64,000 nt of DNA from Balneola sp. GTDB taxonomy: Bacteria > Bacteroidota > Rhodothermia > Balneolales > Balneolaceae. Location: NCBI GenBank assembly GCA_965601915.1, contig OZ271847.1:2257178-2321177 (forward strand). Reading direction: 5' to 3'. The translations under genes were made by a program, and so were the position numbers. Shown in pieces: positions 11,933 to 48,280 of the stretch (the first letter of the stretch is position 1; each line of letters begins with the position of its first letter). The notes beneath the pieces are model-generated. The model did no database searches, had not been told where the DNA came from, and saw nothing but the letters and a program-made list of their open reading frames with translations.

Positions 11933-11939
11933 AAATTGG

Positions 11940-21350: not shown

Positions 21351-21444
21351 CTTGTCAGTCTGTGTTTATTGTTAGAATTGATTAACTATGGCACTCAATT
21401 AGCCGATCATATTTATATTAGTGATCATCTAACGGTTAAATGAC

Positions 21445-29442: not shown

Positions 29443-29534
29443 TTGAATACATCTCTTTTAATGTGGAAGTTAGAATTGGTTAATGAAGCCAAATAAACTT
29501 GGTTAATTGCTATCTTTCTTTATATATCAAGAAG

Positions 29535-32500: not shown

Positions 32501-35500
32501 ATTTACGGTTAATGATGGAGATGCAGATAGCAATACACAATCCCGGGATGTTTCCGTTACATCTACTAATTCTAAGCCATTACTTTCAAATATAGAAGCA
32601 ACTACTCCTACTTATCAGGGCACCGATCTTCAAATTACGAATACCATCGAAGTTTCTGACCCGGATGACACTTCCGTTGACAGTGCAATAGTTGTAATTA
32701 ATGGAAACTTTAAAGCAGCTGAAGATTCTCTAATTTATTTTCCTGTATTTGGAATCTCCGGCACCTATAACGATTCAAACGGCAGATTAAAATTGTCCGG
32801 CACCTCCTCCTTTTCTGACTATCAGACAGCGCTGAGGTCGGTCAAATACCGTAATTTCGGCTCGATCCCTACCGGTCCAGCTCGTGAGATTTCTTTTATT
32901 GTAAGTGATGGAGAACTCAAAAGTGACTCACTAAAAAGAACTATTGAAGTTAACGCTGTTGAAGCTATCAATGGGCTGGAAGTTTGGCTCAGAGCAGATG
33001 TTGGTGTAGTTACCAGTGGTTCTGAAGTTGTTACATGGCAGGATCAAAGTGGAAACAGTAATGATTTTACTGGTACTGCAGGATCAGGAAACCGTCCAAC
33101 TTTTATTTCCAGTTCCGTTCCTCTTGGTGAACAACCTTCAATTGATTTTGCAGGAAATGGAGATCACTTTTTAGATAATGACGGGGAAACGAATTACATA
33201 AATGGAATGACAGAGTTTACTCTGTTTCTTGTTTATAAATCAGATGAAACAAATTCAGATCAAGGAATGTGGATTGCTGACGACCCTAATGGTTCAGATG
33301 AAATTTTTACTATGCGGTATGATGCTTCAGGAGCTAACACTGGTGGCTCATTTACAAATGTAGTAAAAGTTGGAATTCTTGGGAATGATGCTGATAATCA
33401 GCTAGAAAGTTTTTCGGATATTCAAAATACACAAACTCAAATAACCAGTTTACATTGGGAAAGCGGAACAACTTTTGATTTGTATGTTGATGGAATCCTG
33501 AATAACCCAAGTGCTGCAGGCACCCCTCCTTCAGGATCAATTAGTAATGCAACTAAAGCCATTGTTGGTAAAGGTGGAAAAGATACAGGAAATAACAGCT
33601 GGAATGGTCAGATAGCTGAAGTCATTCTTTATGGTAAAAATCTTAATGAAGATGAAAGAGAAAAAGTTGAAGATTATCTTGCTGAAAAGTATTCAACAGC
33701 AATTAGAAAGATAACTGCTGCAACCGGCGGTGAAGCAATTTCTGCAGATGATGCTAATTCGTCATACACATCATTAAGTGGACCAATCATTCAAGAAGGT
33801 TTTGCAGGAGAACTTACAGGTTCGGGCACCATTGTTTTACAAGCGCCTGTAGGTTATGAATGGAATACAGGAGCTACAGTCACAGTTACAGAAGCTGCGG
33901 CCTATGGAGGTAGTACAACCCTTGACGCCTCTTTTACAAGCATTACTTCCAGCCTTTTAACGATTACTATTGATACAGAATCCTCATCAAACCCGGGAGA
34001 AATCACGCTCTCAGGTTTACAAATAAGACCTACAACCGGAGTTTTACCTAATACCGGCAATATTCAAAATGTTGGATCTACCGGTCTTGGAGGAGCCACC
34101 AATTACGGAACACTTGAAATGGTTCCAGGTACTCAGGATAGTTTGATATTTATACAACAACCTTCTGATACAAATAAGGACAGTATCATCACCCCTTCAG
34201 TTAGAGCTCAGATTGTTGACCAGTTTGGAAATGAGGTTGAAAACGCAGGTGTGTCTATTTCAATGGCACTTACAACAGGATCAGGAATATTAAGTGGTAC
34301 TTTATCAGATAACACAAATTCTTTGGGAATTGCTGATTTTGCTGATTTGACTATAGATGAAATTGGCTCAAAAAGAATCACCGCAAGTGCACCCGGTATA
34401 AGCTCCACCATAAGTAATGAATTCGATATTGTTAACGCCGGAACACTCATTGCTTTCAGAGTTGAAAGAACCCCTTCAGGAAATATCAGTGCTAAGACTG
34501 CAGGACAAACTTTTAACACAGTAATCACTGCCATTGACGGAACAGGTTCAACCGTAACAAGCTTTAATGGAACAGTAGTTGTTACTTCAAATTGTACATT
34601 AGAAACCGGCCAAGGTACAACTGCCAATTTTTCAAGTGGTGTTTTATCGACGCATTCGTTAAGTATTTCAAGTGTAGGCAACTGTTCGATTACAGCAACA
34701 AATTCTGCCGGAGCGCAAACAGGAATAAGTAATACATTTAACGTTTCAGCCGGCGCACCTTCAGAAGAAACATCTATAATTACCGCTTCCCCAACAGTTA
34801 TTCTAAATAATGGCAGCAGTACATCTACCATCACTGTAGATGTAAAAGATGAATTCGGTAATAATGTAAGTTCAGGTGGTTCTACTGTTACGCTAATGAT
34901 AACGCCAACCGCTTTGGGAAGCCTAGGTTCGGTGACTGATAATGGAAATGGAACTTACACCGCAACACTTACTTCATCCCTTTCTACTGGAACAGATAAT
35001 ATAACCGGCACATTAAATGGAAGTGCTATTACTGATGATGCGAATGTGGAGTATGCCTCTTTTACTCACATTTGGGAAAGTCAGTTAGGATCTGCAAGTG
35101 CAGCATCCGATTGGGAAGATGTAGATAACTGGAATGTCGGCTCTGTTCCCGGAGTAACTTCTGTAGTACTGATACCTGCAGATCCCGAAGTTGGTAACGA
35201 GTATCCTGTAGTTGATGTTTCAGGAGGGATTGCTTCATCCATTACCTTTGAACCAGGTGCAAATCTGACAATTTCTGGAGGAATAAACTTTACTGTCGGT
35301 GGTGATTTGAATGGAGGAAGTGTTTTAGGAAGTAACACTGACAGTCTAACCATTGGAGGAGATGTAATCAATGTTTCAGAAATCACCGTTGGTACTGTGG
35401 TATTAAATGGATCATCCGAACAAGCTATCACAGATCCTCATGAATACACAAATTTAGTAATTGATAACTCAAATGGTGTATCCGTAATAGATAATCTTGT

Positions 35501-37150: not shown

Positions 37151-37654
37151 ATGAACCGTTTTTGTGCATTTATATTCTCTTTTCTCTTAGTGACATCGGC
37201 AAAAGCACAGGATAATTCCAAAAAAAGCTTTAATGCGGATATAAATATAACTGCAACTGTAATACAAACAATTGAAATTGTTACTGTACAGAATATAAGA
37301 CTTGCGGGTATGGATCCGGTAAACAATCAATTCCTGATACCTCCCACTACAAGTGCTAACGCAGGATTTATGATTGCAAGAGGTAATCCGGATGCTGAAA
37401 TAAGGATCACTTATCAACCTTCTCAGATTTTAAATCAAATCAATGGTGATGGAATTATCCGGGTAAATTACCAGCTTTCCGGAAATGATATTGAAGAACA
37501 ATTGACTTCTGAAATACTTCAGGTCGAAAACAGAAATTTCACTTTCAACAGTGAAGGTGAATTCTTTATATGGGTTGGTGGAAGAGTTTTTATTGAGCAA
37601 GCAAAACCTGGGAGTTACGAAGGCGAATTCACCGTAGAAATCGATTATATCTAA
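37151..37654 (+). CDS. DUF4402 / spore-coat-U-like pilin paralog 1
   Basis: Signal peptide (MNRFCAFIFSFLLVTSAKAQ). The C-terminal motif is WVGGRVFIEQAKPGSYEGEFTVEIDYI, of the form G.Y.G.f.V...Y followed by the stop. I prefer the ATG at 37151 over the listed GTG at 37115. Confidence 0.6.
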   Translation: MNRFCAFIFSFLLVTSAKAQDNSKKSFNADINITATVIQTIEIVTVQNIRLAGMDPVNNQFLIPPTTSANAGFMIARGNPDAEIRITYQPSQILNQINGDGIIRVNYQLSGNDIEEQLTSEILQVENRNFTFNSEGEFFIWVGGRVFIEQAKPGSYEGEFTVEIDYI

Positions 37655-37658
37655 TCCA

Positions 37659-38249
37659 TTGAAAAAAGCATTGTACATATCAACCTTCTTGATAGTGTTT
37701 TTGACTGGTACTACTGTTTCAGCTCAGGAAATAGATTTCGGAGATTATTATAACTATACACTAACAGTTGCTGAACTTAACCCTGGAACTGATTTTGAAT
37801 TCGGAACTATTGTTTCCGGATCAGGATCTAATGTACTAACAATTGCTAATTCTAAAGTTATCACTATTACGGGCGTCAAATATTTAGATGTGTTTGTTAC
37901 CGTAACAGCAGATGATGAATTACTATTGGGAGGAAATCCCGGGTGTGTTGGTGACCCGAGCTGCAGTATAGATTTTGAACTAGAAGCTGCATACGCAAAT
38001 CGGGGAAGTAATAATATAGGACAGGCCCGTATTATCTCTGTAACTGCCAACTCAGGAACAGCACAATTTCCAATCAAATATAGAACAACTGCTCCACCTT
38101 CACCTCCCCCAACTCCGGTCTATGAAGGTTACAATCCTGCAGCCTTTAATGAAACAGCTTACTTATATATATACGGCTCTTTGAGTGTTGGTACTGTTAA
38201 TGCCGGAAGTTATACCGGAAATATTGACGTTACTTTGATATATGATTAA
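37659..38249 (+). CDS. DUF4402 / spore-coat-U-like pilin paralog 2
   Basis: TTG start 4 nt after the previous stop, and a signal peptide. It has an FEFGTIVSGSG motif and the C-terminus IYGSLSVGTVNAGSYTGNIDVTLIYD. A proline-rich insert (TAPPSPPPTPVYEGY) is present. Confidence 0.6.
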   Translation: MKKALYISTFLIVFLTGTTVSAQEIDFGDYYNYTLTVAELNPGTDFEFGTIVSGSGSNVLTIANSKVITITGVKYLDVFVTVTADDELLLGGNPGCVGDPSCSIDFELEAAYANRGSNNIGQARIISVTANSGTAQFPIKYRTTAPPSPPPTPVYEGYNPAAFNETAYLYIYGSLSVGTVNAGSYTGNIDVTLIYD

Positions 38250-38778
38250 TAAGATTATCAAATATAATAGCGTCTTATCCCTTTTTCTGATTCTGTTTTT
38301 ATTAAATCCTTTATTAGGGTTTGGACAATACATAAATATCCAGATAGAACTTGAACCTGAATTTCAAACAGAAGTAGTTTCTGAACTAAATTTTGGAGAT
38401 ATAGTCGTTGGCTCGGGTGAAAAATCCATTCAATTAGGAGATTCTAATATGGGAATCTTTTCTGTTACAGGAATAAATTCTCAATCTGTACGACTTTCTA
38501 TAGACACTCCTTCAACACTTACACATTCAGATCCATCTATTACAGATAGCATACCTTTCGATATCCGAGCATCTTATAACAATAGTGGAGAGAACACAAT
38601 TCAGGGTTCTGAGCCTATAAACGGCGATATTGCTTATACCGTAATCAACAGAAATGCTTTAAAAAATCAATTCGAATGGCAAACCATGTACGTATTTATA
38701 TATGGAACTATAATGGTTGGCAATATACAGGATGGAGTTTATAACGGGTTTATCCGCCTAACCGTGGATTATGAGTAA
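38242..38778 (+). CDS. DUF4402 / spore-coat-U-like pilin paralog 3
   Basis: It overlaps the previous gene by 8 nt and has a signal peptide. It carries LNFGDIVVGSGE and the C-terminus IYGTIMVGNIQDGVYNGFIRLTVDYE. Confidence 0.6.
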   Translation: MINKIIKYNSVLSLFLILFLLNPLLGFGQYINIQIELEPEFQTEVVSELNFGDIVVGSGEKSIQLGDSNMGIFSVTGINSQSVRLSIDTPSTLTHSDPSITDSIPFDIRASYNNSGENTIQGSEPINGDIAYTVINRNALKNQFEWQTMYVFIYGTIMVGNIQDGVYNGFIRLTVDYE

Positions 38779-38862
38779 ATCTTAATTAAAGACTTCTAAC
38801 TTGGAATCACATTTTGATATTCCGAACTTTTTCTCAACGAACAAATTAAACTAATTTCGATC

Positions 38863-39366
38863 ATGAAAAATTTAAAATCACTTTTCGCTCTTATCGCAGT
38901 ATTCGCATTTGCAGGTTCTGCTGCATTCGCTCAGGAAACCGCTAACGTTGCAGTTACAGCTCAAGTTGAAGCAGCTCTTGTTTTAACTCCAACTGACATC
39001 GCTCTTGGAACTATCCAAACTGGCGCTGCATCAATTATTGATGCTAACGCTAACGATGATGCTACTGAAGCTAACTTAGGTGACGGTGCTTCTGCTGGTT
39101 CTCTTCAGATTGTTGGTACTTCAGGTGTTGACGTTGTTGTTGCATGGGACGACGCTACTCTTGACAATGCAGGTACTACTGATGCAATTGCTTTTGTACC
39201 TTCTGTATGGTTAGGTGCTTCTGAAGTAACTGATGGTGGAACTGTTACATTAACAGGTGGAGATATTACTCTTGATGTTGGTGGTGCGCTTGCAGCTCCA
39301 TCCGGAACTGGTGCTTACAGTACTGCTAACGGAACTCCAATCGTATTCACTATTACTTACGATTAA
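38863..39366 (+). CDS. DUF4402 / spore-coat-U-like pilin paralog 4 (probable major subunit)
   Basis: Signal peptide (...GSAAFAQE) and an Ala/Thr/Gly/Val/Asp-rich mature protein with the C-terminus GAYSTANGTPIVFTITYD. It shows a strong preference for GCT, GTT, ACT and GGT codons, unlike its neighbours. It has its own 84-nt leader and a strong terminator after the stop. Confidence 0.65.
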   Translation: MKNLKSLFALIAVFAFAGSAAFAQETANVAVTAQVEAALVLTPTDIALGTIQTGAASIIDANANDDATEANLGDGASAGSLQIVGTSGVDVVVAWDDATLDNAGTTDAIAFVPSVWLGASEVTDGGTVTLTGGDITLDVGGALAAPSGTGAYSTANGTPIVFTITYD

Positions 39367-39382
39367 TAGAGTTTAAAATTCT

Positions 39383-39416
39383 AAAAAGTCTCGTTGTTAA
39401 ACGAGACTTTTTTTTT
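39383..39416 (+). terminator. Rho-independent terminator or attenuator after the putative major pilin gene
   Basis: Stem GTCTCGTT (39388-39395) / AACGAGAC (39400-39407) with a 4-nt loop, followed by nine T and preceded by AAAAA. Confidence 0.75.
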
Positions 39417-39498
39417 GTCTCATTCACACTGAAAAATTCAAATACTAATTTGCACTTGAATTTGTTAATTTGAGCATCATTTAATAAATCTACAGAAA

Positions 39499-40332
39499 AT
39501 GAAAAAGCTTTTATTGTTACTTATAGTAACTTTGACAATTGGTGTTGATTATAGTTTTTCCCAGATAACAATCTCTCCAACCAACCTTTTTATTGAAGAA
39601 AACACAAAGTTTGGGACGTATCTGGTAATAAATGGGTCTAACGAACCTCAGGAAGTATCCGTTGATTTTATCTTCGCATACACAACCTCTGATAACGAAG
39701 GAACCAGAAGTGTAATTTATGATGATGCTGAAACAGAAGCAGCATTTTCTGCTCATGAGTGGGTTCGTGCTTTCCCAAAAACTTTCACTTTGCAGCCAGG
39801 ACAACGACAAATTGTTAGGTTAAGGGTTTCCCCAACATCCGGATTGGACGATGGAACCTACTGGGCTCGTATAAAAACCTCTTCCTCGGCGCAAACACCT
39901 CCGGTTGAACTACAGGAATCAGGCGCTGTATCTGCAAGGGTGGGAATCACAATAGAACAAATAACAGGACTTTTTTATAAAAAAGGTAATGTGACAACTG
40001 GAATCAATGTAACAGAAACCAGAACAGAGATGTTAGATAATAATAATACCCTCGCAGTTATCTCTGATTATGTAAGAGGTGGGAATTCTCCTTTCCTAGG
40101 TTCTATTACACTGAATATTAAAGACTCAGGTAATAAAGTAGTCGCTTCATCTTTCAGATCGACTTCACTTTATTTTGATGGTACACATCGACAGGAAGTT
40201 GATATAAGTAATTTACCTAATGGGTCGTATTCTGTTGAGCTAATTTTTGAAGCTCAGAGAAATGATGTATCAGCGGACGATATTGTTCCAATGGATACAG
40301 AAACTGTTACTACACAATTTGTTAAGAGTTGA
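39499..40332 (+). CDS. PapD-like periplasmic pilus chaperone candidate
   Basis: 277 aa with a signal peptide. ITISPTNLFIEENTKFGTYLVINGSNEPQEVSV ... FPKTFTLQPGQRQIVRLRV follows the pattern of the chaperone-usher chaperone N-domain (i.v.P....l......l.v.N....p..v.v ... l.P..f.l.pg..q.vRl). Confidence 0.55.
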   Translation: MKKLLLLLIVTLTIGVDYSFSQITISPTNLFIEENTKFGTYLVINGSNEPQEVSVDFIFAYTTSDNEGTRSVIYDDAETEAAFSAHEWVRAFPKTFTLQPGQRQIVRLRVSPTSGLDDGTYWARIKTSSSAQTPPVELQESGAVSARVGITIEQITGLFYKKGNVTTGINVTETRTEMLDNNNTLAVISDYVRGGNSPFLGSITLNIKDSGNKVVASSFRSTSLYFDGTHRQEVDISNLPNGSYSVELIFEAQRNDVSADDIVPMDTETVTTQFVKS

Positions 40333-43322
40333 TATTTGAAAAATGGAAATATATTTCTCTACTTTTAATCATCTTCAGCCTTCTTGCTTATACAAAACCT
40401 GTATCCGCTCAAGAAGAACCAGAAGATGAAATAGAAGTATATCTTTCATTTTCTTACCGTAGTGCAGTAAATTCAGTAGTTATCGCCTACTATAAAAATG
40501 ATAAATTTTACCTCCCCTATCGTGAGTTATTTCAGTTACTTGAAATTGATCAAAATACAGATCTAACTAACAATAAGATCATACTAAAAGGTCGTTTTTT
40601 AGAGGAACAGACCCCTTACTCAATAAATTTATCCGACAACCAGGCAACATTCGGTGATCAAAGCTTCCAATTAACGCAGGAAGAATATATGATCAAGGAA
40701 TTGGATTATTATTTGGAAAGCTCTTTATATGATAAAATATTTGATTTAAAATTTTCGGTGGATTTTAACAACCTCGCAATCCAACTGGATACACCAAATA
40801 ATATTCCTGTAGTTGAACGCATTATGAGGCGTAATCAAAGACAGTTGATTGCTCGAAATCAAACCTTAGTTGATAAAAACTATGAACTGAAGTATGACCG
40901 TAATCGTAAAGTATTTGGGGCCGGTTTTCTTGATTACAACCTCTCTACAATAAATACTGTTGATTCCGACCTTTTTATTTACAACGCATCTATTGGCGGT
41001 GAACTATTGGGCGGAGATGTACAAGGTGCATTGAACGGAGCTATATCTTCTGATATCAATAATTTTACAACAGACAATTTACGCTGGAGGTATGCAATCC
41101 CTGGTAGTGAAATACTCACTTCAATACAAGCTGGCCAGGTTGCATCTGACGGATATTTAGGAGCTCCATATACCGGAGTCAGACTCACGAACCAACCAAT
41201 AGAGCCTCGAAGATTATATGATGAGTTCATTATACAGGGAAATACAATCCCTAGATCAGAAATTGAACTTTATTTGAATAACACACTTGTTGATTTTCAG
41301 GAATCTGATGCTGCAGGAAACTATCGGTTTATTACTCCATTGACGTATGGTACTTCCTCATATGATATTAAGATTTTTGGACCGACCGGTGAAATCATCG
41401 AACAATCAAAAAGAATCCAAGTCCCTTTTTCTTTCCTACCTAGTGGAGAAATCAATTATAACGTAAATGTTGGTAGACTTAACAATCCGATAATCGGAAC
41501 CAATGATAGAGGAATGCTTGGCCAGGGTAATGTGAGAGTAGGTCTTTCAAATTGGCTAACTGCTAATGCCGGTGTTGAATATTTTGAAGATTATCATTCA
41601 GATATCCCTACTTTCAATGGTGGTTTTTCTGCAAGATTGATGAATAAATATCTTATTACAACCGAATTCCTTTCTGGGATCTTAGCAAAGACTCGCGGAA
41701 GTGTGATTTTAGCCAACTCTTCCAGTATAGGTCTTAGTTATACTAACTTTTTTGAAAATACGGGTATCTATAATACTGCAGGTGTTGATCAAGAGATTCA
41801 GGGAAGTTTATTCTACCCGTTTCGTTTTGGAGACATTCCCTTAAACGTGCGGTTATTTGCTTCCAGATTAGAAAGAAAACCTCGCCCCCTTTCAAGATAT
41901 CGGGTAGATTTAAGTACGCGTTTTGGAAGACTTAATTTACGTTCAGGTTTCAGTAATTCGAGTTCAGGAGAGAACTTTTTTGATATTGCAGAAAACGCTG
42001 AAGTTACACTTTCAGCTACTTATACCTTTCCCAGATATCAGACTACTCCTAAATTTTTTCACGGTTTATTTGCAAGATCTGAGCTTTCATTTTTGCCTAA
42101 TACTAATGAACTCGGCGAAGCTGGCTTGTTTGTCTCTAAAAGTGTTTTCAGACAGGGCAATTTACAGCTAAACTATTCCAGAAATTTCAAGTTCTCTTAT
42201 GATGCTTTCTCTTTCGGATTGGTTATTGATTTTAATAAAGTCAGGGTAAATTCAAGATTAAACAGCCTTCGTGGAAATAATACGTTCACGAATACAATCA
42301 GAGGATCTGTTGGATATGATCCTATTAATAGAAATGTATTATTAACAAGTAGAAATCAGGTTGGGAGATCTGCAGCAGCTGTTCGTTTATTCGTTGATTA
42401 TAACGGAGACGGAATCTACAATGAAGGGGATGATATCATTGATAGTGACGCGGTTAGAATTGATAGAACCGGAAGTAAATCAGGTACAAAAAATGGAATC
42501 ACCTATATCACACAAATGCAACCTTATTACAGGTATAACATGGAGGTTAATAAAGGGGCAATTCAAAATCCTTTACTGGTTCCTGAAAACGATAAATTTG
42601 CATTAATTACTGACCCAAACTTTTTCAAACAGATTGAAATACCATTTTATTCATCAGGAATAATTGAAGGAATGGTTAACAGATATTTTTCATCAACTAC
42701 AAAAAGTGGAATTGGAGGAGTAAGGTTATTTCTCAGCAATAAGGTAAATGATGAAGTACTTGAAATAAGAACGTTTTCTGATGGTAGTTTTTACTCCTAT
42801 GAAATTCCTCCGGGCAAGTACCGTCTCAGAATTGATCAGAACCAGTTAGATGTATTGCAAGCTTCTTCAGATCCTGAATTCATAGACTTTGAAATAAAAG
42901 CCCTTGCTGAAGGCGATTTTATAGAGGGTATGATCTTTAATATAATTCCTGATGGAGTTATACCTGAAGAAGATAAAATCAATGAAAACGCAATACTTAC
43001 AGATCTGGAAAACAGCTCTGAACTCAATGAGTATGAAAATGAACTCAGATCTAAAGTAGATGAAACACTACGTTTAATTGTAAAAGCTCAGAACGCTTTT
43101 TACAGCAGAAACACTAATCAAGCATTAGATTTTGTTAATCAATCTTTGGAAATATTCAAAACCGCCCAAGGATATGCTTTAAGGGGCAGTTTACTCTACC
43201 TTCAAGGGAATAAAGAAGAGGCCCAAAAAAGCTGGGATATGGCTACAAGATTCAATCCAGATATTTATATTCCTGATACTGAAACATTGGATCAGATCAT
43301 CAAAACAGAACATGGCGATTAA
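40329..43322 (+). CDS. Usher-like outer-membrane beta-barrel protein with C-terminal TPR module
   Basis: TTG start overlapping the chaperone stop (TTGA), and a signal peptide. It has an usher-like N-domain, a plug-like segment (IELYLNNTLVDFQESDAAGNYRF...YDIKIFGPTGE) and a long stretch of amphipathic beta strands. A CarboxypepD_reg-like domain (GGVRLFLSN...SDGSFYSYEIPPGKYRLRI) and a TPR-like tail complete it. Confidence 0.5.
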   Translation: MIFEKWKYISLLLIIFSLLAYTKPVSAQEEPEDEIEVYLSFSYRSAVNSVVIAYYKNDKFYLPYRELFQLLEIDQNTDLTNNKIILKGRFLEEQTPYSINLSDNQATFGDQSFQLTQEEYMIKELDYYLESSLYDKIFDLKFSVDFNNLAIQLDTPNNIPVVERIMRRNQRQLIARNQTLVDKNYELKYDRNRKVFGAGFLDYNLSTINTVDSDLFIYNASIGGELLGGDVQGALNGAISSDINNFTTDNLRWRYAIPGSEILTSIQAGQVASDGYLGAPYTGVRLTNQPIEPRRLYDEFIIQGNTIPRSEIELYLNNTLVDFQESDAAGNYRFITPLTYGTSSYDIKIFGPTGEIIEQSKRIQVPFSFLPSGEINYNVNVGRLNNPIIGTNDRGMLGQGNVRVGLSNWLTANAGVEYFEDYHSDIPTFNGGFSARLMNKYLITTEFLSGILAKTRGSVILANSSSIGLSYTNFFENTGIYNTAGVDQEIQGSLFYPFRFGDIPLNVRLFASRLERKPRPLSRYRVDLSTRFGRLNLRSGFSNSSSGENFFDIAENAEVTLSATYTFPRYQTTPKFFHGLFARSELSFLPNTNELGEAGLFVSKSVFRQGNLQLNYSRNFKFSYDAFSFGLVIDFNKVRVNSRLNSLRGNNTFTNTIRGSVGYDPINRNVLLTSRNQVGRSAAAVRLFVDYNGDGIYNEGDDIIDSDAVRIDRTGSKSGTKNGITYITQMQPYYRYNMEVNKGAIQNPLLVPENDKFALITDPNFFKQIEIPFYSSGIIEGMVNRYFSSTTKSGIGGVRLFLSNKVNDEVLEIRTFSDGSFYSYEIPPGKYRLRIDQNQLDVLQASSDPEFIDFEIKALAEGDFIEGMIFNIIPDGVIPEEDKINENAILTDLENSSELNEYENELRSKVDETLRLIVKAQNAFYSRNTNQALDFVNQSLEIFKTAQGYALRGSLLYLQGNKEEAQKSWDMATRFNPDIYIPDTETLDQIIKTEHGD

Positions 43323-43343
43323 GACGGCTTTGCTAAAAGTGCA

Positions 43344-45206
43344 ATGATTAAGACATATACTTCTTTTACTGTTAAAAGAATTTTTATTCAGCCTTACATA
43401 TGTATTGCAGTATTCTTTTTTTTCTTTTTTCCTGATGTAAATGCTCAATCCAATACTTCAAGTCTTGCTCAGTCATCTGATATTCAAATTGCTACTCTTG
43501 AACAAGGTTATGACTCTCAGGTAATTCAGGTTATTGCTAATCACTTTGATCGTAAAAAGTTTTTTGTTGATGTAAATATTGACGCTGAATTTACTGAGGA
43601 AACTGTTACCACAACCGGAAACGCGGCAGTAACTCAACGACCTCAAAACGTCTTACTTCCCGGACTCCCATTTCTTCCACAAGAAAACCTGCAAAACACT
43701 CCTCAGTCAACTACTACCAATGAACCGGTAGTTAATCAAAATGTAGTTCGAAGACTTCAACTCAATAACATCGTCGTAAATATCTATGCTGATACAAGTT
43801 TTTCTGTAGACGAATTAGACTTTATGAGACAAATTGCTGGGTTTGCAGCCAAAATAAACCCGGCCAGAGGAGATCAAATCAATATTACTCAGCTGGCAAT
43901 TCCAGATCCCGATTTCAAACCAATTCCCATTGAAACAACCGATATTACTGAGCAAACAGCTGAACCAACTACTTTTATTTCTTCTTTAAGTAATTACATT
44001 ACTGAATTTATACTTATTGGTTTATTTATTCTTTCTCTGATCGCTCAAAATATTTTTAATAAAGACAAAAGCTCGTCTTCAAATCTGAGATTAGAAAGAG
44101 GAAGTTTGCAGGGAAGTTTAAGTTTAGATGGTGGTGGGTTACCCTCTTCAATGGGAAGTGAAAATCCTGGAAATTTCAGTAATCAGTCATTTAATATTAC
44201 CACTTCAGAAGAAGAGTTTTCTATGAAAGAGTTTGATGAACTCTCAAAAAATTTCTTCACTAAACCCGAAGAAACCGCACTTCTCCTAGAATACTGGATT
44301 GATGAAGACCCAATTAACGGAGCTAATAAAGCAGCTGAAATTATTGCATCTGGCGACTCTACTCTTATACGTTCTATCAAAAAAGATTTGCCAGAGGATA
44401 AATACAGTGATATAGTACAGGCTTTGGAAGAACTGCCCCCAATGACTATTGAAGAAAAGAATAAAGCCGCTAAATACTTTAATACCCTGATCAAGGAGGG
44501 CGAAAACAAAACATCAAAAAAGAAAAATTACGCCAACCTGGGGCTCTTTAAATTTCTTGAGCACGTTACCAATACTCAGTTGATGGAGCTACTTAAGAAT
44601 GAAACTAATCAAACAGCAGCATTGGTTATAGATTACCTTCCGGAAGAAAAAGCAGCTGAAATAATCAATAAACTTGATGGCGAAAAAGCAACAGAAATAA
44701 TGCTTAAGATGTCAACGCTGCATAATCTTACTTACAAACAACATAGTTTAATATCATCCAGACTTTTTGATAAGGTTGTTGAAATCAGAGATGTTGAAAA
44801 ACAAGAAAAGCTTGGGATGGATAACATTCTGCCAATTCTAGAGAAACTTCCTATAAAAGAACAAAAACGCTATATCCAACAAATAAAAGAGTCCGGATCG
44901 GCACTGGGAGAAATGCTTGAAGCCAGATTTTTGACTGTTGATCAGATACCGGAACTCTCTGAAGAGATAGTAAAAGAAGGCATTGAGCCACTAAACACAC
45001 CTACCTTGCTTGAGGCTTTAATTGGATTAGAGAAAGCTGCTGTTGATAAAATCTTATCTGCACGTCCTAAGAGAGAGCAGAAATTGATCAGGATGGAGCT
45101 CGAAAATGTAAGTGATTCTGAAGGAACTGACGAAGCTAAGACCATACTTCTAAGTTCGCTCAGAAAAGCTTACGCCGTACATCTCGAAGAAGAAGTTGTA
45201 GATTAA
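43344..45206 (+). CDS. Fusion protein: FliF/YscJ-like periplasmic ring domain, one TM helix, then FliG-like N, middle and C domains
   Basis: It has a signal peptide. VVRRLQLNNIVVNIYAD...DELDFMRQIAGFAAKINPARGDQINITQ resembles the FliF C-terminal periplasmic region (..RLSVAVvvn...ie.lv..a.Gf...RGD.l.V). A TM helix follows (FILIGLFILSLIAQNIF). The cytoplasmic part has FliG-like segments: GANKAAEIIASGDS (N), LLKNETNQTAALVIDYLPEEKAAEIINKLDGEKATEIMLKMSTL (middle, compare LKNEHPQTIALVLSYL...) and FLTVDQIPELSEEIV...LLEALIGLEKAAVDKIL...KREQKLIRMELEN...DEAKTILLSSLRK (C). Confidence 0.7.
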   Translation: MIKTYTSFTVKRIFIQPYICIAVFFFFFFPDVNAQSNTSSLAQSSDIQIATLEQGYDSQVIQVIANHFDRKKFFVDVNIDAEFTEETVTTTGNAAVTQRPQNVLLPGLPFLPQENLQNTPQSTTTNEPVVNQNVVRRLQLNNIVVNIYADTSFSVDELDFMRQIAGFAAKINPARGDQINITQLAIPDPDFKPIPIETTDITEQTAEPTTFISSLSNYITEFILIGLFILSLIAQNIFNKDKSSSSNLRLERGSLQGSLSLDGGGLPSSMGSENPGNFSNQSFNITTSEEEFSMKEFDELSKNFFTKPEETALLLEYWIDEDPINGANKAAEIIASGDSTLIRSIKKDLPEDKYSDIVQALEELPPMTIEEKNKAAKYFNTLIKEGENKTSKKKNYANLGLFKFLEHVTNTQLMELLKNETNQTAALVIDYLPEEKAAEIINKLDGEKATEIMLKMSTLHNLTYKQHSLISSRLFDKVVEIRDVEKQEKLGMDNILPILEKLPIKEQKRYIQQIKESGSALGEMLEARFLTVDQIPELSEEIVKEGIEPLNTPTLLEALIGLEKAAVDKILSARPKREQKLIRMELENVSDSEGTDEAKTILLSSLRKAYAVHLEEEVVD

Positions 45207-45736
45207 TGAGACCTAAAAAGCTGCACATATTATCATTGTTCTTTATTTTAGGCATCTTAGTATTTTTTGAAACCGGATGTAGATCATCTGAAAAAGCATC
45301 CGGAAATTTAAATTCTGCAACTGAGAATTCAGATTCTTCTCCAGAGAGTTTTTCTGAAGCTCCGGAAACCCGATCTGACGATGAAATCCGTGATTCCTTA
45401 AGCTCATTTTTAAAAGATGAATTGAAGGATTATTATCATGCACAAGCCAACCGCCTAACTTCTTTTTATATTCTTGCCCAACAAAGATTTTACAGTGCTG
45501 AGTATGATCAGGCATTACTACTTATAAACAGAGCTGCAAACATCAAAGAAACAGCAGATGTTTTGGCGTTGAAAGGAAGTATTTATTACGGCTTGGGATC
45601 TATTGAAAACTTTGTATCAAATTGGAAACAAGCTCTGGACTTGGATAAAAATGTACCCATTCCGCCTTCTCCACCCATAGTTGAAGAACTTAAACGTCAG
45701 GGTTTATTGAATGATAACCTTGAAAGAAATTACTAA
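45206..45736 (+). CDS. TPR-like lipoprotein
   Basis: The ATG overlaps the previous TAA (TAATG). It has a lipobox (FFETGC) and an acidic, serine-rich linker. The C-terminal TPR-like module ALLLINRAANIKETADVLALKGSIYYGLGSIENFVSNWKQALDLDKNVPIP is paralogous to the tail of the usher-like protein. Confidence 0.6.
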   Translation: MRPKKLHILSLFFILGILVFFETGCRSSEKASGNLNSATENSDSSPESFSEAPETRSDDEIRDSLSSFLKDELKDYYHAQANRLTSFYILAQQRFYSAEYDQALLLINRAANIKETADVLALKGSIYYGLGSIENFVSNWKQALDLDKNVPIPPSPPIVEELKRQGLLNDNLERNY

Positions 45737-45742
45737 CGCTTA

Positions 45743-46540
45743 ATGAAGATCTCTTTTTCAAATATTATCAGCTTTTTGGTTTCTCTTGGAATTCTGGTTT
45801 GGGGGTCATTAATGGTTATAGGGTTTACAGAATATAATGTGATTCCATCTGAGCTTGATTTTTTAAACCTACCGAGTCTTGCCATAGTCTTCGGAGGTAT
45901 TTCGGCAAGTGTATTTATCAGTTACCCTTTTGGAAAAGTGATCAGAGCGTTCAGAGAAAGTTTCCGGTTGTTTTCTCAAAGTAATATTGATGATAAACTC
46001 CTTGAACAGGATATTGAAAATATACTTGAATGGCAGAAGATGATACGTATAGACAGAAATGCCGCAGTATCTCAACTTAGCGAACAATACAGTAATCGTT
46101 TTGAAGGGTATCTATTTTCAATTCTGGATACTAATTATTCAACCGAAGAATTCCGCGAATTAGGTCAAATTAATATTCAGGAAACGTATACCCGTCAACA
46201 GCAGATCAATCAAATAATGGTAAGTATGGGTAAAACTGCTCCTGTTTTTGGGATGTTGGGAACCCTTTTTGGCTTGATTGTTATTCTATCTGGTTTTAAT
46301 GAAGTTGAATCTTTGCTTTCAGGATTGGCTGCGGCATTAATGACTACTTTATATGGAATTTTGATAGGAAATTTCCTCTTCACCCCTATGGCAAAGAAAA
46401 TGAATAATATTGCCTCTCTTCAATATTTCAGAGAAAAAATGATTCTTGAAGGCGTTTTACTTATTCAAGATCAGAAATCATCTTTGCAGATTTATGACAA
46501 GCTTAAAGCTCATATGCATCGCAATGTTCAACAGTTTTAA
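45743..46540 (+). CDS. motA: MotA/PomA-type stator channel protein (MotA/TolQ/ExbB family)
   Basis: 265 aa with a four-TM layout and a large cytoplasmic loop. The signature is GKTAPVFGMLGTLFGLIVIL...GLAAALMTTLYGILIGNFLFTPMAKKM. Confidence 0.8.
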   Translation: MKISFSNIISFLVSLGILVWGSLMVIGFTEYNVIPSELDFLNLPSLAIVFGGISASVFISYPFGKVIRAFRESFRLFSQSNIDDKLLEQDIENILEWQKMIRIDRNAAVSQLSEQYSNRFEGYLFSILDTNYSTEEFRELGQINIQETYTRQQQINQIMVSMGKTAPVFGMLGTLFGLIVILSGFNEVESLLSGLAAALMTTLYGILIGNFLFTPMAKKMNNIASLQYFREKMILEGVLLIQDQKSSLQIYDKLKAHMHRNVQQF

Positions 46541-46552
46541 TTATTGTGAACC

Positions 46553-48280
46553 GTGAGTTTAGAAGATCCATACAAACAAAAAAATTCTCTCTACCCTGAT
46601 CAGGAAATTGAATCCGCTGATGATGACAGCTGGCAGGTTAGTTATCTGGATATAATAACCATTATTCTGGGCTTTCTGATCATTCTTCTTTCTGTTTCTT
46701 CTTTGAATGATATAGAAACATTTTCGGTCTCCGATTTATTTAAATCATCTGAAAATGAAACAGAATTCATCACAACTCCGATTGAGCAAATAAAAGAAAG
46801 ACTGGAAGCTTTATTAGCCCAAGAAATTGAAGCAGGTCAGCTGGAAATATTTAGGGAATTAAATGACGTCAAGATAAAACTTAGAAGCGATGATATATAT
46901 CGCTCTGGAAGCGCTGAAATTCAGCCTTCATCTAAAGAGATGCTTAATCGGGTTTTAGCAGCTTTCAGACTCATTGAGTATGATGATTTTGAAATAGATG
47001 TGGAAGGACATACAGATAACGTTCCTATAACTACGGCATCTTACCCTTCCAACTGGGAACTTTCAACAGCCAGGGCATCAAATGTGGTTAAATACTTCAA
47101 TCAAATGGGAATAGACGAAGAAAGACTTAAAGCATCCGGATATGCTTCTTCCCGACCTGTAATTGAATTTGATGATCAGGGAAACCCTATTGCAGCGTCA
47201 AGAAGTAAGAACCGCAGAGTTGTTTTGAGATTATACTATTCTACGCCTGAGCAATTGATTGCTGAAAATTCAGACTCTAAAAACTCTGAGAGCCCCTCTT
47301 CAGACACTCAACAGAATAATCCTGAAGAAGAAGGTTCTGAAATTTCAAATACTACTGATGAAGCTAATACTGAAACTGAAGAAACAGCCCCTTTAACAGA
47401 AAACACTGTTGAAGATAAAGCCGATAACAAAAAAGAAGAGCTTGCCGAAGCTACTCCCTCCCCTGTTATCAAGTCTGAAGACATAAGCAAGCAGCCAAGA
47501 GCAAATAATCAATTGTCTGTTGTTGATGCTGAAGGCTGTAGTTTTTCTGTAGAAGCAGGAAATTATGAATCTTTTGCCAACAGCATCAGGGCTGCTAATC
47601 AAGCTGAAACAGCTACAGGCACCGATTTTGAGATCGTATACAACAATTTTTTATTTTCGGTTAGAAGTACTCCTCAAAATTCAATAAGACAAGCAATTAC
47701 TCTCCAGAAAAGTGCTCAAAGTTCCATTTCCAGTTCTGAATCTGCCTCTGTTATCAATCAATGTTATTCGCAGCCTTATCAATATCCCGAGAATCTTAAA
47801 TACATTATTCAGTTAGGTTTTTTCTCGAGCGAACAAAATGCTGCAAATTTCAGAGATAATTTAAATTCTGAATATAACATAGACGCTAAATTGGAAAATC
47901 TATCTGTTCAGGCGCATACTGTTTATGCTGGACCATTTGTAAATCGAAGTGCAGCCCAACAAAGGATCTCAGAATTCCGAGAGATCGAATTACTTAACAA
48001 CGCATTTATTAAATATGATCAGGGTACAGTTTCTGATTACTCTTATGATTATCAGATCTTGGCTGGCTCTTATCCTAGTAAAACCAAAGCCTTTCAGATA
48101 TCTCAAAGCCTTCAGAATCAATATAATATCAGATCAGAAGTAAAAACTAAAGCAGACGGTTATTCTTATGTAATTACTGAAAATCAGAATGATATGGACA
48201 GGGCTTTGATCGTAATAGATCAATTGACCGGATCAAATCTGGATATTGACCCGGTCATATTTTTAACAGAGAAAAATTAA
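46553..48280 (+). CDS. motB: MotB/OmpA-family stator protein with acidic linker and two C-terminal SPOR-like domains
   Basis: GTG start. The TM segment carries a conserved Asp (WQVSYLDIITIILGF, D33, GAT at 46649-46651). The OmpA-like peptidoglycan-binding domain reads EGHTDNVPI...SNWELSTARASNVVKYF...NRRVVLRL. An acidic low-complexity linker follows, then two SPOR-like repeats (YIIQLGFFSSEQNAANFRDNL...; YQILAGSYPSKTKAFQISQSL...). Confidence 0.85.
   Translation: MSLEDPYKQKNSLYPDQEIESADDDSWQVSYLDIITIILGFLIILLSVSSLNDIETFSVSDLFKSSENETEFITTPIEQIKERLEALLAQEIEAGQLEIFRELNDVKIKLRSDDIYRSGSAEIQPSSKEMLNRVLAAFRLIEYDDFEIDVEGHTDNVPITTASYPSNWELSTARASNVVKYFNQMGIDEERLKASGYASSRPVIEFDDQGNPIAASRSKNRRVVLRLYYSTPEQLIAENSDSKNSESPSSDTQQNNPEEEGSEISNTTDEANTETEETAPLTENTVEDKADNKKEELAEATPSPVIKSEDISKQPRANNQLSVVDAEGCSFSVEAGNYESFANSIRAANQAETATGTDFEIVYNNFLFSVRSTPQNSIRQAITLQKSAQSSISSSESASVINQCYSQPYQYPENLKYIIQLGFFSSEQNAANFRDNLNSEYNIDAKLENLSVQAHTVYAGPFVNRSAAQQRISEFREIELLNNAFIKYDQGTVSDYSYDYQILAGSYPSKTKAFQISQSLQNQYNIRSEVKTKADGYSYVITENQNDMDRALIVIDQLTGSNLDIDPVIFLTEKN

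What the first reader, a model, noticed from the sequence alone, without database searches (positions are those of the whole stretch)
37151..48280. Ten-gene operon joining a chaperone-usher-like pilus system to a non-flagellar rotor-stator module (FliF/FliG fusion plus MotA/MotB)
All ten ORFs are on the same strand, with overlaps or gaps of 21 nt or less. The exceptions are the 84-nt leader of the putative major pilin gene and the 132-nt spacer after it.

Gene order is four DUF4402/spore-coat-U-like pilins, a PapD-like chaperone, an usher-like outer-membrane barrel, a FliF/YscJ-FliG fusion, a TPR lipoprotein, MotA, and MotB-OmpA-SPOR. Classical chaperone-usher assembly needs no energy source and no inner-membrane component. 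FliG plus MotAB is the torque-generating pair of the flagellum.

The window shows no flagellin, hook or rod genes, no FliM/FliN, no type III export gate and no ATPase. The arrangement therefore suggests a previously undescribed envelope-spanning machine driven by proton-motive force. An inner-membrane rotor-stator could power, rotate or gate an outer-membrane pilus or adhesin apparatus, by analogy with GldLM in T9SS gliding or AglRQS. It sits directly downstream of three giant T9SS adhesin-like genes.
Basis: partly seen in the sequence, partly recalled or inferred. Interest (0 to 1): 0.92.

Follow-up and report, generated by a model that had tools for sequence, protein, structure and literature searches.

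The report
Flagellar-type motor joined to a pilus system
A marine Balneola-like bacterium has one tight operon that joins a chaperone-usher pilus kit to a stripped-down flagellar rotor (a FliF-FliG fusion) and MotA/MotB stator with no other flagellar genes nearby, and the same motor module recurs in several phyla, pointing to an undescribed ion-driven machine that spans the cell envelope.

Summary
Ten co-directional genes lie at 37151-48280 with the stated spacings.

- **Pilus half:** four DUF4402-type pilins (g1-g4), a two-domain periplasmic protein that annotation pipelines call a PapD-like chaperone (g5), and a true usher fold (g6; FimD Foldseek E 4e-30).
- **Motor half:** g7 joins a FliF RBM3/collar-like periplasmic domain, one membrane helix and a full FliG. 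It is followed by a TPR lipoprotein (g8), a flagellar-type MotA (g9) and a MotB-plug-OmpA-SPOR protein (g10).
- **Key residues:** the MotB Asp, two MotA Pro residues and the FliG torque-helix charges are invariant among the Balneolaceae relatives compared.
- **No flagellar context:** no flagellar gene occurs in the 64 kb window.
- **Conservation:** about 40 Balneolaceae species keep the order. So do distant lineages at 20-36% protein identity, including Bacteroidia.
- **Separability:** sister lineages keep the pilus genes without the motor, and their usher then carries the SPOR tail that g10 has here. Elusimicrobiota, Fibrobacterales and other lineages carry the motor module with a small outer-membrane protein instead of an usher.
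- **Literature:** I found no description of this system.

The most likely mechanism is an ion-driven rotor-stator coupled through TPR domains to an outer-membrane usher. The output (rotation, gating or pulling) is inferred, not shown.

The parts
17706..37055 (+). Context: three giant surface proteins with a T9SS C-terminal sorting domain (17706-21350, 21445-29442, 29499-37055)
   Evidence: Por_Secre_tail is found in all three; DUF2341, Laminin_G_3 and Invasin_D3 are found in the two largest. A Por_Secre_tail protein also precedes the cluster in L045, L047, L051 and L054.
37151..37654 (+). g1, DUF4402-type minor pilin with a signal peptide
   Evidence: DUF4402 25.6 bits against a cut-off of 25.2. 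Orthologues occur in L051 and L054 at 31-35% identity.
37659..38249 (+). g2, DUF4402-like pilin
   Evidence: DUF4402 E 0.0013. Conserved in all loci.
38242..38778 (+). g3, DUF4402-like pilin; overlaps g2 by 8 nt in 36 of the 40 loci with both genes (14-17 nt in the other four)
   Evidence: DUF4402 E 0.0022. The overlap is conserved.
38863..39366 (+). g4, probable major pilin
   Evidence: The g4 family profile matches the g1 family profile (hhalign probability 98%, E 2.4e-13). 5 of 18 orthologues hit DUF4402. It has its own 84-nt leader and is followed by a hairpin.
39383..39412 (+). Terminator-like hairpin after g4 (13-bp stem plus T run); probably an attenuator that sets the pilin:assembly-protein ratio
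   Evidence: The attenuator role is inferred by analogy with major-pilin genes of classical chaperone-usher operons.
39499..40332 (+). g5, periplasmic protein; probable PapD-like chaperone
   Evidence: Signal peptide present; 4-nt overlap with the usher gene. PapD_N is weak, in 4 of 17 orthologues. hhalign against FimC is not significant. Sources name orthologues 'fimbrial biogenesis chaperone' or 'PapD'. It is always next to the usher.
40329..43322 (+). g6, outer-membrane usher: N-terminal domain, barrel with plug, Ig-like C-terminal domains, TPR tail
   Evidence: AF2 model pLDDT 84.8. Foldseek: FimD 3rfz E 3.8e-30 over 914 columns, PapC E 1e-23.
42984..43322 (+). C-terminal TPR tail of the usher (residues about 886-997), a paralogue of g8
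   Evidence: TPR_2 in 15 of 16 orthologues. g8 against the g6 tail: E 1e-10. The tail is replaced by SPOR repeats in motor-less relatives.
43344..45206 (+). g7, rotor protein: FliF(RBM3/collar)-TM-FliG fusion
   Evidence: Pfam FliG_N/M/C. AF2 pLDDT 76. Foldseek matches both FliG and the FliF S-ring.
43464..43895 (+). Periplasmic RBM3/beta-collar-like domain of g7 (residues 41-184)
   Evidence: Foldseek against the FliF RBM3/S-ring (7d84, 8zdt, 6scn, 8z4g): E 3e-4 to 2e-3, TM-score (target) 0.5-0.6.
43656..43679 (+). LPGLPFLP motif in the flexible loop at the collar tip; the most conserved stretch of the whole superfamily and a candidate docking peptide
   Evidence: L, P, G, L and P are conserved in 71-78 of 79 diverse members. 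Coordinates checked. The docking role is inferred.
43974..44057 (+). Single transmembrane helix of g7 (residues 211-238)
   Evidence: AF2 helix 211-238 and hydropathy.
44205..45200 (+). Cytoplasmic full-length FliG-like part of g7 (N, M and C domains)
   Evidence: Foldseek: 3hjl full-length FliG E 1.6e-7; 8wiw, 8umx. TIGR00207 fliG E 8e-15, far below its cut-off.
45063..45107 (+). Torque-helix equivalent, RPKREQKLIRMELEN
   Evidence: R574, R577, E578 and E585 are invariant in 62 Balneolaceae sequences. R577 is R or K in 78 of 79 across the superfamily. Coordinates checked. The correspondence to E. coli FliG R281/D289 is by eye, from my own knowledge.
45206..45736 (+). g8, small TPR lipoprotein (lipobox ...ETGC)
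   Evidence: Weak TPR. Paralogue of the g6 tail. A g8-like TPR protein or domain is present in every motor locus examined. It is fused in frame to the rotor ORF in L054.
45743..46540 (+). g9, MotA/PomA-type stator A subunit
   Evidence: MotA_ExbB 60 bits. NCBIfam MotP/MotA/PomA 97-109 bits against ExbB 15 bits. PDB MotA 8ucs E 6e-24. P167 and P215 invariant. 66-95% identity across Balneolaceae.
46553..48280 (+). g10, MotB-type stator B subunit with plug, OmpA peptidoglycan-binding domain and a long SPOR-repeat tail
   Evidence: MotB_plug, OmpA and SPOR all above cut-off. D33 invariant.
47504..48280 (+). SPOR-repeat tail of g10 (residues 318-575), homologous to the C-terminal tail of 'long' ushers in motor-less relatives
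   Evidence: Colinear BLASTP matches to P0208, P0164, P0190 and P0238: E 1e-15 to 2e-7.

Best explanation
The operon encodes one envelope-spanning machine. It is an archaic-style chaperone-usher pilus system with an added non-flagellar rotor-stator module that derives from, or shares ancestry with, the flagellar motor.

**Shown**
- g6 is a true usher.
- g1-g4 are DUF4402 pilins.
- g7 is a single polypeptide that joins a FliF RBM3/collar-like periplasmic domain, one membrane helix and a complete FliG.
- g9/g10 are flagellar-type MotA/MotB. Their ion-path Asp and Pro residues are intact, and g10 has a plug, an OmpA domain and SPOR domains that bind peptidoglycan.
- A TPR domain occurs twice, as the lipoprotein g8 and as the usher's C-terminal tail.
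- The genes are inherited together across very deep divergence.

**Inferred**
- g7 assembles into a ring in the inner membrane, as FliF and FliG do.
- Peptidoglycan-anchored MotA5B2-like stators convert H+ or Na+ flow into torque on the FliG torque helix. There is no FliM/FliN, so there is no switch.
- The ring's periplasmic collar presents the invariant LPGLP loop. The TPR domains of g8 and of the usher tail dock there, and so link inner-membrane energy to the outer-membrane usher.
- The output is a mechanical action on the usher or pilus (turning, pulling or gating). It is not basic pilus assembly, because sister lineages run the same pilus genes without the motor.
For: **Gene identities**
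- Pfam and NCBIfam assignments.
- Folds: g7 matches FliG plus the FliF S-ring; g6 matches FimD/PapC at E about 1e-30.
- Stator type.
- Functional residues invariant: g10 D33; g9 P167 and P215; g7 R574, R577, E578 and E585. R577 is conserved across the whole superfamily.

**Linkage of the two halves**
- Order and overlaps are kept in about 40 Balneolaceae species with g7 down to 38% identity.
- The same layout recurs in L049, L051, L054 and L058-L061 at 20-36% identity.
- The usher and rotor genes overlap in L049 and L051.

**Coupling element**
- The usher TPR tail and g8 are paralogues.
- A g8-like TPR is present in every motor locus examined.
- In the two motor-less loci compared against g10 (L045, L046) the SPOR repeats that g10 carries here follow directly on the usher core; in L047 the tail is long and only its last part matches g10.

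**Independence from flagella**
- No flagellar genes in the window.
- The module is found in housekeeping contexts in Elusimicrobiota, Fibrobacterales and other lineages.

**Breadth**
- 144 representatives at 50% clustering score E<1e-30, and most are full-length fusions.
Against: - **No experimental data.** Ring formation, rotation and the TPR-LPGLP contact are inferred from homology only.
- **g5 is unverified.** It is not statistically identified as a PapD-like chaperone.
- **No axial element.** No rod- or shaft-like gene that could carry rotation through the peptidoglycan was recognised.
- **The link is not obligatory in either direction.** Motor-less pilus loci exist, and so do usher-less motor loci.
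- **Weak stator interface.** The MotA cytoplasmic loop does not show the canonical R90/E98-type motif in the alignment to solved MotA. Other charged residues there are invariant.
- **Rest of the genome unseen.** I could not inspect the remainder of this genome for a flagellar regulon. Some Balneolaceae (Aliifodinibius) do carry flagellar genes (PMC9909488 and its supplement).
Confidence: 0.6

Rival explanations
1. The rotor-stator-TPR module is an independent envelope system, for example a Tol-Pal-like or TonB-like energiser or tether for outer-membrane or septal integrity. It is only co-located or co-regulated with the pilus genes and is not mechanically coupled to the usher.
For: - The five-gene module stands alone among housekeeping genes in Elusimicrobiota, Fibrobacterales and other lineages.
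- The pilus genes work without it in sister Balneolaceae.
- The SPOR tail on g10 suggests targeting to septal peptidoglycan (the SPOR function is from my own knowledge).
Against: - Usher and rotor genes stay adjacent or overlapping across 20-36% identity in four separate subfamilies.
- The usher carries a TPR tail paralogous to the module's own TPR protein in every locus examined that has the motor, and the two motor-less ushers checked in context (P0164, P0208) lose homology to g6 before that tail.
- Stand-alone modules carry their own putative outer-membrane protein in the usher's place. An outer-membrane partner therefore looks like an integral part of the module.
Confidence: 0.15
2. The motor drives surface movement or display of the neighbouring giant T9SS adhesins in a gliding-like function. 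The pilus/usher serves as an anchor or track and is not itself the driven element.
For: - A Por_Secre_tail or SprB/CHU_C giant protein lies next to the cluster in the window, L045, L047, L051, L052 and L054.
- There is precedent for inner-membrane MotAB-like motors moving SprB (own knowledge; T9SS/GldLM).
Against: - Such giant proteins are numerous in these phyla, so adjacency may be chance.
- Motor-less loci (L045, L047) also have the adhesin.
- Subfamily A loci have no such neighbour.
- Gliding has not been reported for Balneolaeota (PMC5167729).
Confidence: 0.1
3. g7, g9 and g10 are decaying leftovers of a lost flagellar system that happen to sit next to a pilus operon.
For: - A published genome comparison reads the partial flagellar-assembly pathway of some Balneolaceae (Aliifodinibius) as a sign of gradual loss of flagellar motility in the family (PMC9909488).
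- 11% of non-motile species carry a rotor protein without a filament (bioRxiv 10.1101/2024.12.05.626484).
Against: - The ORFs are intact, and MotA is 66-95% identical across the family.
- The functional residues compared are invariant among the Balneolaceae relatives.
- The FliF-FliG fusion architecture is fixed and is shared by more than 130 representative clusters in several phyla.
- The module always comes with TPR and outer-membrane partners and never with other flagellar genes.
Confidence: 0.03
4. It is a Zorya-like anti-phage system built on MotAB homologues.
For: g10 matches the ZorB models (E 9e-18), which are themselves MotB-like.
Against: g9 has no ZorA match, and there is no ZorC/D or other defence family. 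g9 is closest to flagellar stators. The neighbours are a FliG rotor and pilus genes.
Confidence: 0.01

Closest known systems
Bacterial flagellar motor core (FliF MS-ring, FliG, MotA5B2 or PomAB stator)
   Same: g7 carries the FliF RBM3/collar fold and all three FliG domains with conserved torque-helix charges. g9/g10 are flagellar-type stator subunits with the Asp, Pro, plug and OmpA features. Engineered FliF-FliG fusions are known to form rings (PMC11481574, listed).
   Different: - FliF and FliG are naturally fused.
- RBM1/RBM2 are missing, and the N-terminal hydrophobic segment looks like a cleavable signal peptide.
- There is no FliM/FliN switch, type III export gate, rod, hook, filament or L/P ring.
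- The partners are TPR proteins and an outer-membrane usher or a small outer-membrane protein.
- All NCBIfam flagellar equivalog scores fall far below their cut-offs.
Chaperone-usher pili, especially archaic/sigma types (Csu pili, Myxococcus spore coat protein U systems)
   Same: The predicted usher fold aligns with FimD over 914 columns and so spans more than the barrel. The operon has several small Ig-like pilins with a shared C-terminal motif, a periplasmic two-domain protein just upstream of the usher, and a major-pilin gene followed by a hairpin.
   Different: - Classical chaperone-usher assembly uses no inner-membrane component or energy source (own knowledge). Here the usher gene is linked to a rotor-stator.
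- The usher has an extra C-terminal TPR tail, or SPOR repeats in motor-less relatives.
- Sequence similarity to the Pfam Usher and PapD families is marginal.
T9SS/gliding motor GldLM (PorLM); also Agl-Glt, Tol-Pal and ExbBD-TonB
   Different: Those systems use a periplasm-spanning stator partner (GldM, TolA, TonB) and no FliG/FliF rotor ring. Here the stator is of the flagellar clade and faces a FliG ring. No GldL/M, TolA or TonB family was detected in the operon.
Zorya (ZorAB) anti-phage defence
   Same: It has a MotB-like subunit with a peptidoglycan-binding domain.
   Different: There is no ZorA-type long tail and no ZorC/D, and the gene context is different.

Membership tests
FliG (flagellar rotor/switch protein) | FliG_N, FliG_M and FliG_C domains and fold | tested here: met
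   Pfam scores of 32, 48 and 32 bits, all above cut-off. Foldseek to full-length FliG 3hjl: E 1.6e-7.
FliG (flagellar rotor/switch protein) | Conserved charged residues on the C-terminal torque helix | tested here: met
   R574, R577, E578 and E585 are invariant in 62 sequences. R577 is R or K in 78 of 79 across the superfamily. The mapping to E. coli R281/D289 is by eye.
FliG (flagellar rotor/switch protein) | Partnership with FliM/FliN and an EHPQR motif; equivalog-level similarity | tested here: not met
   No FliM/FliN in the window or in any related locus. The motif is only E..Q here and degenerates across the superfamily. TIGR00207 scores 55 bits against a cut-off of 226.7.
FliF (MS-ring protein, Pfam YscJ_FliF) | RBM3 plus beta-collar fold | tested here: met
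   Foldseek to FliF S-ring/RBM3 chains: E 3e-4 to 2e-3, TM-score (target) 0.5-0.6. An 'RGD' motif ends the domain, as it does in FliF (by eye).
FliF (MS-ring protein, Pfam YscJ_FliF) | RBM1/RBM2 (the YscJ_FliF domain) and two transmembrane helices | tested here: not met
   No YscJ_FliF hit at E<0.1. The periplasmic part is only about 150 residues. The N-terminal hydrophobic segment ends in a signal-peptidase-like A-Q site; cleavage there is inferred.
MotA/MotB flagellar stator | MotA_ExbB channel domain with the two conserved Pro residues; MotB with the conserved Asp, a plug and an OmpA domain | tested here: met
   (P167, P215; D33).
MotA/MotB flagellar stator | Equivalog-level similarity and the canonical MotA R90/E98 interface motif | tested here: inconclusive
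   The best NCBIfam score is 109 bits against a cut-off of 394. The loop aligns poorly with solved MotA, but D90, K99, E121, D129, R138 and E147 are conserved.
Chaperone-usher pathway | Outer-membrane usher: N-terminal domain, barrel with plug, C-terminal domains | tested here: met
   Foldseek: FimD E 3.8e-30 over 914 columns, PapC E 1e-23, barrel-only TM-score 0.6. Sequence-level Pfam Usher is only 19 bits.
Chaperone-usher pathway | PapD-like periplasmic chaperone | tested here: inconclusive
   No PDB hit. PapD_N is found in 4 of 17 orthologues at E>=0.003. hhalign against FimC gives probability 0.13. Pipelines name orthologues 'fimbrial biogenesis chaperone' or 'PapD'.
Chaperone-usher pathway | Pilin subunits of a recognised chaperone-usher pilin family | tested here: inconclusive
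   DUF4402 is found in g1 (above cut-off) and is weak in g2 and g3. g4 is linked by profile. I recall from memory that DUF4402 proteins are chaperone-usher pilins related to spore coat protein U; I did not test this. No paper in the library mentions DUF4402.
Chaperone-usher pathway | Energy-independent, with no inner-membrane component | tested here: not met
   The usher gene is linked to the rotor-stator genes.
Zorya defence system | ZorA plus ZorB plus ZorC/D (or E) | tested here: not met
   Only a generic ZorB-like match for g10.

The most novel reading that the evidence does not exclude
The cluster builds a second kind of rotary surface filament. A flagellar-type FliF/FliG-MotAB motor, with no type III export apparatus, spins or whirls a chaperone-usher pilus, or the usher itself. 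This would give motility or active adhesion.

The stand-alone five-gene module in Elusimicrobiota, Fibrobacterales and other lineages would then be a free-living rotor-stator unit. It could be close to the ancestral state from which the flagellar motor was assembled, or it could be an exaptation of that motor.

A loose lead: Balneola vulgaris was described as motile with flagella (Urios 2006, via PMC5167729). A later genome comparison reports no flagellar-assembly genes in the genus (PMC9909488). B. vulgaris has at least the g5-like chaperone. I could not check whether it has the motor.
Probability: 0.12. Interest if true: 0.97.

Novelty: categorically new. Interest (0 to 1): 0.88.

Why it matters
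**A FliG rotor outside the flagellum.** FliG and the MS-ring are described only as parts of the flagellum, and every other known MotAB-family machine (Tol, Ton, Gld/Por, Agl, Zorya) works without a FliG rotor. A conserved, widespread rotor-stator unit that lacks the type III export apparatus shows that the torque-generating core can exist and be selected on its own.

[quoted passage not shown] A recent survey found rotor proteins in 11% of non-motile species and left their role open (bioRxiv 10.1101/2024.12.05.626484). This module is one candidate explanation for some of those cases.

**Pilus biology.** This would also be the first chaperone-usher system coupled to an energy source.

**Testability.** The system comes as natural plus-motor and minus-motor variants at the same chromosomal locus. 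At least one named cultured strain carries it (Balneola sp. EhC07, L008). Cryo-ET, deletions and bead or tethered-cell assays could therefore test it directly.

Tried and rejected
- **Sequence identification of g5 and g6 gave nothing useful.** Profile searches against PDB sequences and per-member Pfam scans were only marginal. g6 was settled by structure. g5 stayed unresolved: hhalign against E. coli FimC gave probability 0.13.
- **The pilin profile has no solved relative.** The search against PDB sequences returned no credible match, only three chance-level hits at E>=1.5.
- Alignments A6, A7 and A8 had no stretch conserved enough to search with.
- **Literature searches found no description of this system.**
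  - 'DUF4402' returned 0 papers.
  - FliG/non-flagellar/MotA/chaperone-usher, FliG-like, FliF-FliG fusion (engineered fusions only), FliG+MotA+usher+Bacteroidota, Fibrobacter+FliG+MotA and a broader search all found nothing relevant.
  - PMC13070061 looked promising but was irrelevant.
  - The MotAB evolution paper PMC12505986 does not discuss it, as far as my term search showed.
- **Zorya was rejected**. A flagellar relic was rejected on conservation.
- **Polarity of motor gain or loss is unresolved.** A neighbour-joining tree of the usher core interleaves the short (TPR-tail, motor-type) and long (SPOR-tail) forms many times. Repeated deletion and recombination cannot be told apart.
- **The apparent rotor-g8 fusion in L054 is only a hint.** It may be two genes without an intervening stop codon.

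Full report
**1.

Ten ORFs lie on the + strand between 37115/37151 and 48280. Their spacings are +4, -8, +84, +132, -4, +21, -1, +6 and +12 nt. A strong hairpin with a T run (39383-39412) sits in the 132-nt spacer after the fourth gene. This suits a highly expressed major pilin gene followed by attenuation.

The three giant genes upstream (17706-37055) all end in the T9SS sorting domain Por_Secre_tail. Pfam scans of the other ORFs of at least 150 aa in the 64 kb window found no flagellar, type III export or ATPase family. The downstream neighbours on the opposite strand are E2, E1-beta, E1-alpha and AlaRS.

**2. What the genes are**

*Pilins (g1-g4).*
- g1 reaches Pfam's cut-off for DUF4402; g2 and g3 match weakly.
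- g4 has no Pfam hit of its own. A profile of its orthologues matches the g1 profile (hhalign probability 98%, E 2.4e-13), and 5 of 18 orthologues hit DUF4402.

*Chaperone candidate (g5).*
- My own tests do not identify g5. There was no PDB hit. PapD_N appeared in 4 of 17 orthologues at E>=0.003. hhalign against FimC gave probability 0.13.
- It has a signal peptide, overlaps the usher gene by 4 nt, and lies beside the usher in every related locus examined that has one.
- NCBI and JGI name orthologues 'fimbrial biogenesis chaperone', 'molecular chaperone' or 'PapD'.

*Usher (g6).*
- Sequence searches do not identify it.
- Its AlphaFold model (pLDDT 84.8) matches FimD over 914 columns at E 3.8e-30 and PapC at E 1e-23. 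It is an usher.
- It carries an extra C-terminal TPR tail.

*Rotor (g7).*
- It has FliG_N, FliG_M and FliG_C above Pfam cut-offs.
- Its model (pLDDT 76) matches full-length FliG (3hjl, E 1.6e-7).
- Its periplasmic half matches the RBM3/S-ring of FliF (7d84, 8zdt, 6scn, 8z4g; E 3e-4 to 2e-3).
- There is no YscJ_FliF (RBM1/2) match, so it is a minimal FliF(RBM3/collar)-TM-FliG fusion.

*TPR lipoprotein (g8).* It is a small lipoprotein. Its TPR part is a paralogue of the usher tail (E 1e-10).

*Stator (g9, g10).*
- g9 is closest to flagellar stators: NCBIfam MotP/MotA/PomA 97-109 bits against ExbB 15 bits, and PDB MotA 8ucs E 6e-24.
- g10 has MotB_plug, OmpA and SPOR domains.
- Across orthologues, g10 D33 and g9 P167 and P215 are invariant. 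So are R574, R577, E578 and E585 on the presumed g7 torque helix.
- PADLOC gives only a generic ZorB-like hit.

**3. Conservation within the family**

The rotor protein has full-length relatives (36-100% identity) in Balneola and other Balneolaceae. In 44 species-level genome loci the ten genes keep their order and tight spacing wherever the contig is long enough. The g2/g3 8-nt overlap and the g5/g6 4-nt overlap are also kept. MotA is the most conserved protein, at 66-95% identity. The flanks are often syntenic too, so this alone shows inheritance within one family and not necessarily functional linkage.

**4. A natural minus-motor variant**

The usher has two architectures.
- Short forms (about 1000 aa) carry the TPR tail, as in the window.
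- Long forms (1140-1690 aa) end in SPOR repeats. They occur in Gracilimonas, Rhodohalobacter, Aliifodinibius, Fodinibius and Halalkalibaculum.

I examined three long-usher loci (L045, L046, L047). All have the pilins, the g5-like gene and the usher, and none has g7-g10. In two of the three, the genes that follow on the opposite strand are the same E2/E1/AlaRS set as in the window.

The long usher's tail aligns colinearly with the SPOR tail of g10, residues 318-575. Relative to the motor-less loci, the usher TPR tail, g7, g8, g9 and the N-terminal half of g10 therefore behave as one cassette lying between the usher core and the SPOR repeats.

A tree of the usher core interleaves the two forms many times. 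The cassette has therefore been lost, gained or exchanged repeatedly. Two conclusions follow. The pilus system does not need the motor for basic function. The motor is tied physically and genetically to the usher.

**5. Distant relatives**

An exhaustive HMMER search with the rotor profile found 144 representatives (50% clustering) at E<1e-30. More than 130 of them are full-length proteins of 570-810 aa with the same fused architecture. They fall into about ten subfamilies. Source names include Elusimicrobiota, Fibrobacterales, Bacteroidia and Pseudomonadota MAGs.

Their gene neighbourhoods are of two types.

*Type 2: pilins, chaperone-like gene, usher with TPR tail, rotor, sometimes a separate TPR gene, MotA, MotB.*
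- Found in L049, L051 (a Bacteroidia MAG with the full ten-gene order behind a Por_Secre_tail giant), L054 and L058-L061.
- Protein identities to the window are only 20-36%.

*Type 1: a compact five-gene unit of rotor, a roughly 360-aa protein X, a TPR protein, MotA and MotB.*
- Found among housekeeping genes in L048 (Elusimicrobiota), L055, L056, L057 (Fibrobacterales) and L052.
- X has a signal peptide and a faint FlgO-like N-domain. In four of the five sequences it ends in Y/F-x-F, as outer-membrane barrels often do. It is probably the outer-membrane partner in place of the usher.

Across 79 diverse members, the best-conserved positions are:
- an LPGLP motif in the flexible loop at the tip of the collar;
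- the RGD that ends RBM3;
- two FliG_N positions;
- the torque-helix Arg.

**6. Mechanism**

*Shown:*
- the parts list;
- their intact functional residues;
- their co-inheritance;
- the TPR paralogy;
- the SPOR-tail swap.

*Inferred:*
- g7 forms an inner-membrane ring.
- Peptidoglycan-anchored MotAB units turn it using H+ or Na+. There is no FliM/FliN switch.
- The TPR domains of g8 and of the usher tail bind the ring's periplasmic face, and the LPGLP loop is the obvious candidate ligand. Ion-motive energy would thereby reach the usher.
- The output is an added mechanical action on the pilus or usher (rotation, pulling or gating), because the motor is dispensable for the pilus genes in sister lineages. 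How torque would cross the peptidoglycan without a rod is unexplained.

**7. Comparison with known systems**

It works like a flagellar motor core attached to a chaperone-usher pilus, but it is not a member of either system.
- It fails flagellar membership: no FliM/N, no export gate, no RBM1/2, no rod or filament, and scores far below equivalog cut-offs.
- It fails the chaperone-usher property of being energy-independent.
- It resembles GldLM, Tol and Ton only in concept, because none of those has a FliG rotor.

**8. Novelty**

Seven targeted full-text searches found only engineered FliF-FliG fusions and general stator or flagellar-loss studies. One preprint notes rotor proteins in 11% of non-motile species and leaves their function open. 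A Balneolaceae genome paper reports a partial flagellar pathway in Aliifodinibius and reads it as a sign that the family has been losing flagellar motility. The library lacks most subscription journals, so prior description cannot be fully excluded.

**9. Caveats**
- All functional statements rest on homology and gene context.
- g5 is unverified by structure.
- I could not inspect the rest of this genome.
- Taxon labels of MAGs are as deposited.
- The usher tree is a quick neighbour-joining tree.

Noticed in passing
L045 3490-6217; L047 3768-6594: In motor-less Balneolaceae loci, four or five extra small genes sit between the giant adhesin and the DUF4402 pilins. One of them carries DUF4900. 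They are absent from the window, where the adhesin-to-g1 gap is under 100 nt.
   Followed up: no
L052 15204-22019: In a marine Bacteroidota-like contig, the stand-alone rotor-X-TPR-MotA-MotB module is followed directly by a giant protein of more than 5800 aa with SprB repeats and a CHU_C (type B T9SS) domain. Giant T9SS cargo genes also flank the cluster in the window, L045, L047, L051 and L054.
   Followed up: partly
L049 9755-11928; L054 13859-16080: Two distant type 2 loci have a response regulator and a histidine kinase directly after MotB (on the same strand in L049, on the opposite strand in L054). The window has no regulator next to the operon.
   Followed up: no
L054 10001-12265: The rotor ORF runs in frame, with no stop codon, into a g8-like lipoprotein (MKRHYLIILFVLPFFWTSC...). 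This is either a true rotor-TPR fusion or two genes read as one.
   Followed up: partly
L049 5844-8267: This rotor homologue (807 aa) carries an N-terminal LysM peptidoglycan-binding domain. A different peptidoglycan-binding domain is therefore attached to a different subunit than in the window, where SPOR is on MotB.
   Followed up: no
window 8001-14000: This stretch has a clearly lower G+C content (0.31-0.33 against 0.38-0.41 elsewhere). It holds a DEAD/ResIII helicase-like gene, a cNMP-binding protein, an esterase and a beta-lactamase-TPR protein, and could be an acquired island.
   Followed up: no
window 15137-17543 (- strand): dTDP-rhamnose pathway genes (rmlB-like, rmlC, rmlD) lie immediately upstream of the three giant T9SS adhesin genes. 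They may be linked to surface glycosylation.
   Followed up: no
window 127-3690: A large protein with ten PKD-domain repeats. The listed ORF starts close to the window edge, so the gene may extend beyond it.
   Followed up: no
Literature: PMC5167729 Table 1; PMC9909488: Balneola vulgaris is recorded as motile with flagella. A later genome comparison says the genus Balneola lacks flagellar-assembly genes. B. vulgaris has a g5 orthologue named 'molecular chaperone' (P0453). I could not check whether it has the motor genes.
   Followed up: partly
L053 1-6683: A contig labelled Pseudomonadota has TPR protein, rotor fusion, a 212-aa OMP_b-brl protein and a 945-aa TPR protein. MotA/MotB are not on the part of the contig that was recovered. 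This may be a third outer-membrane partner type.
   Followed up: no
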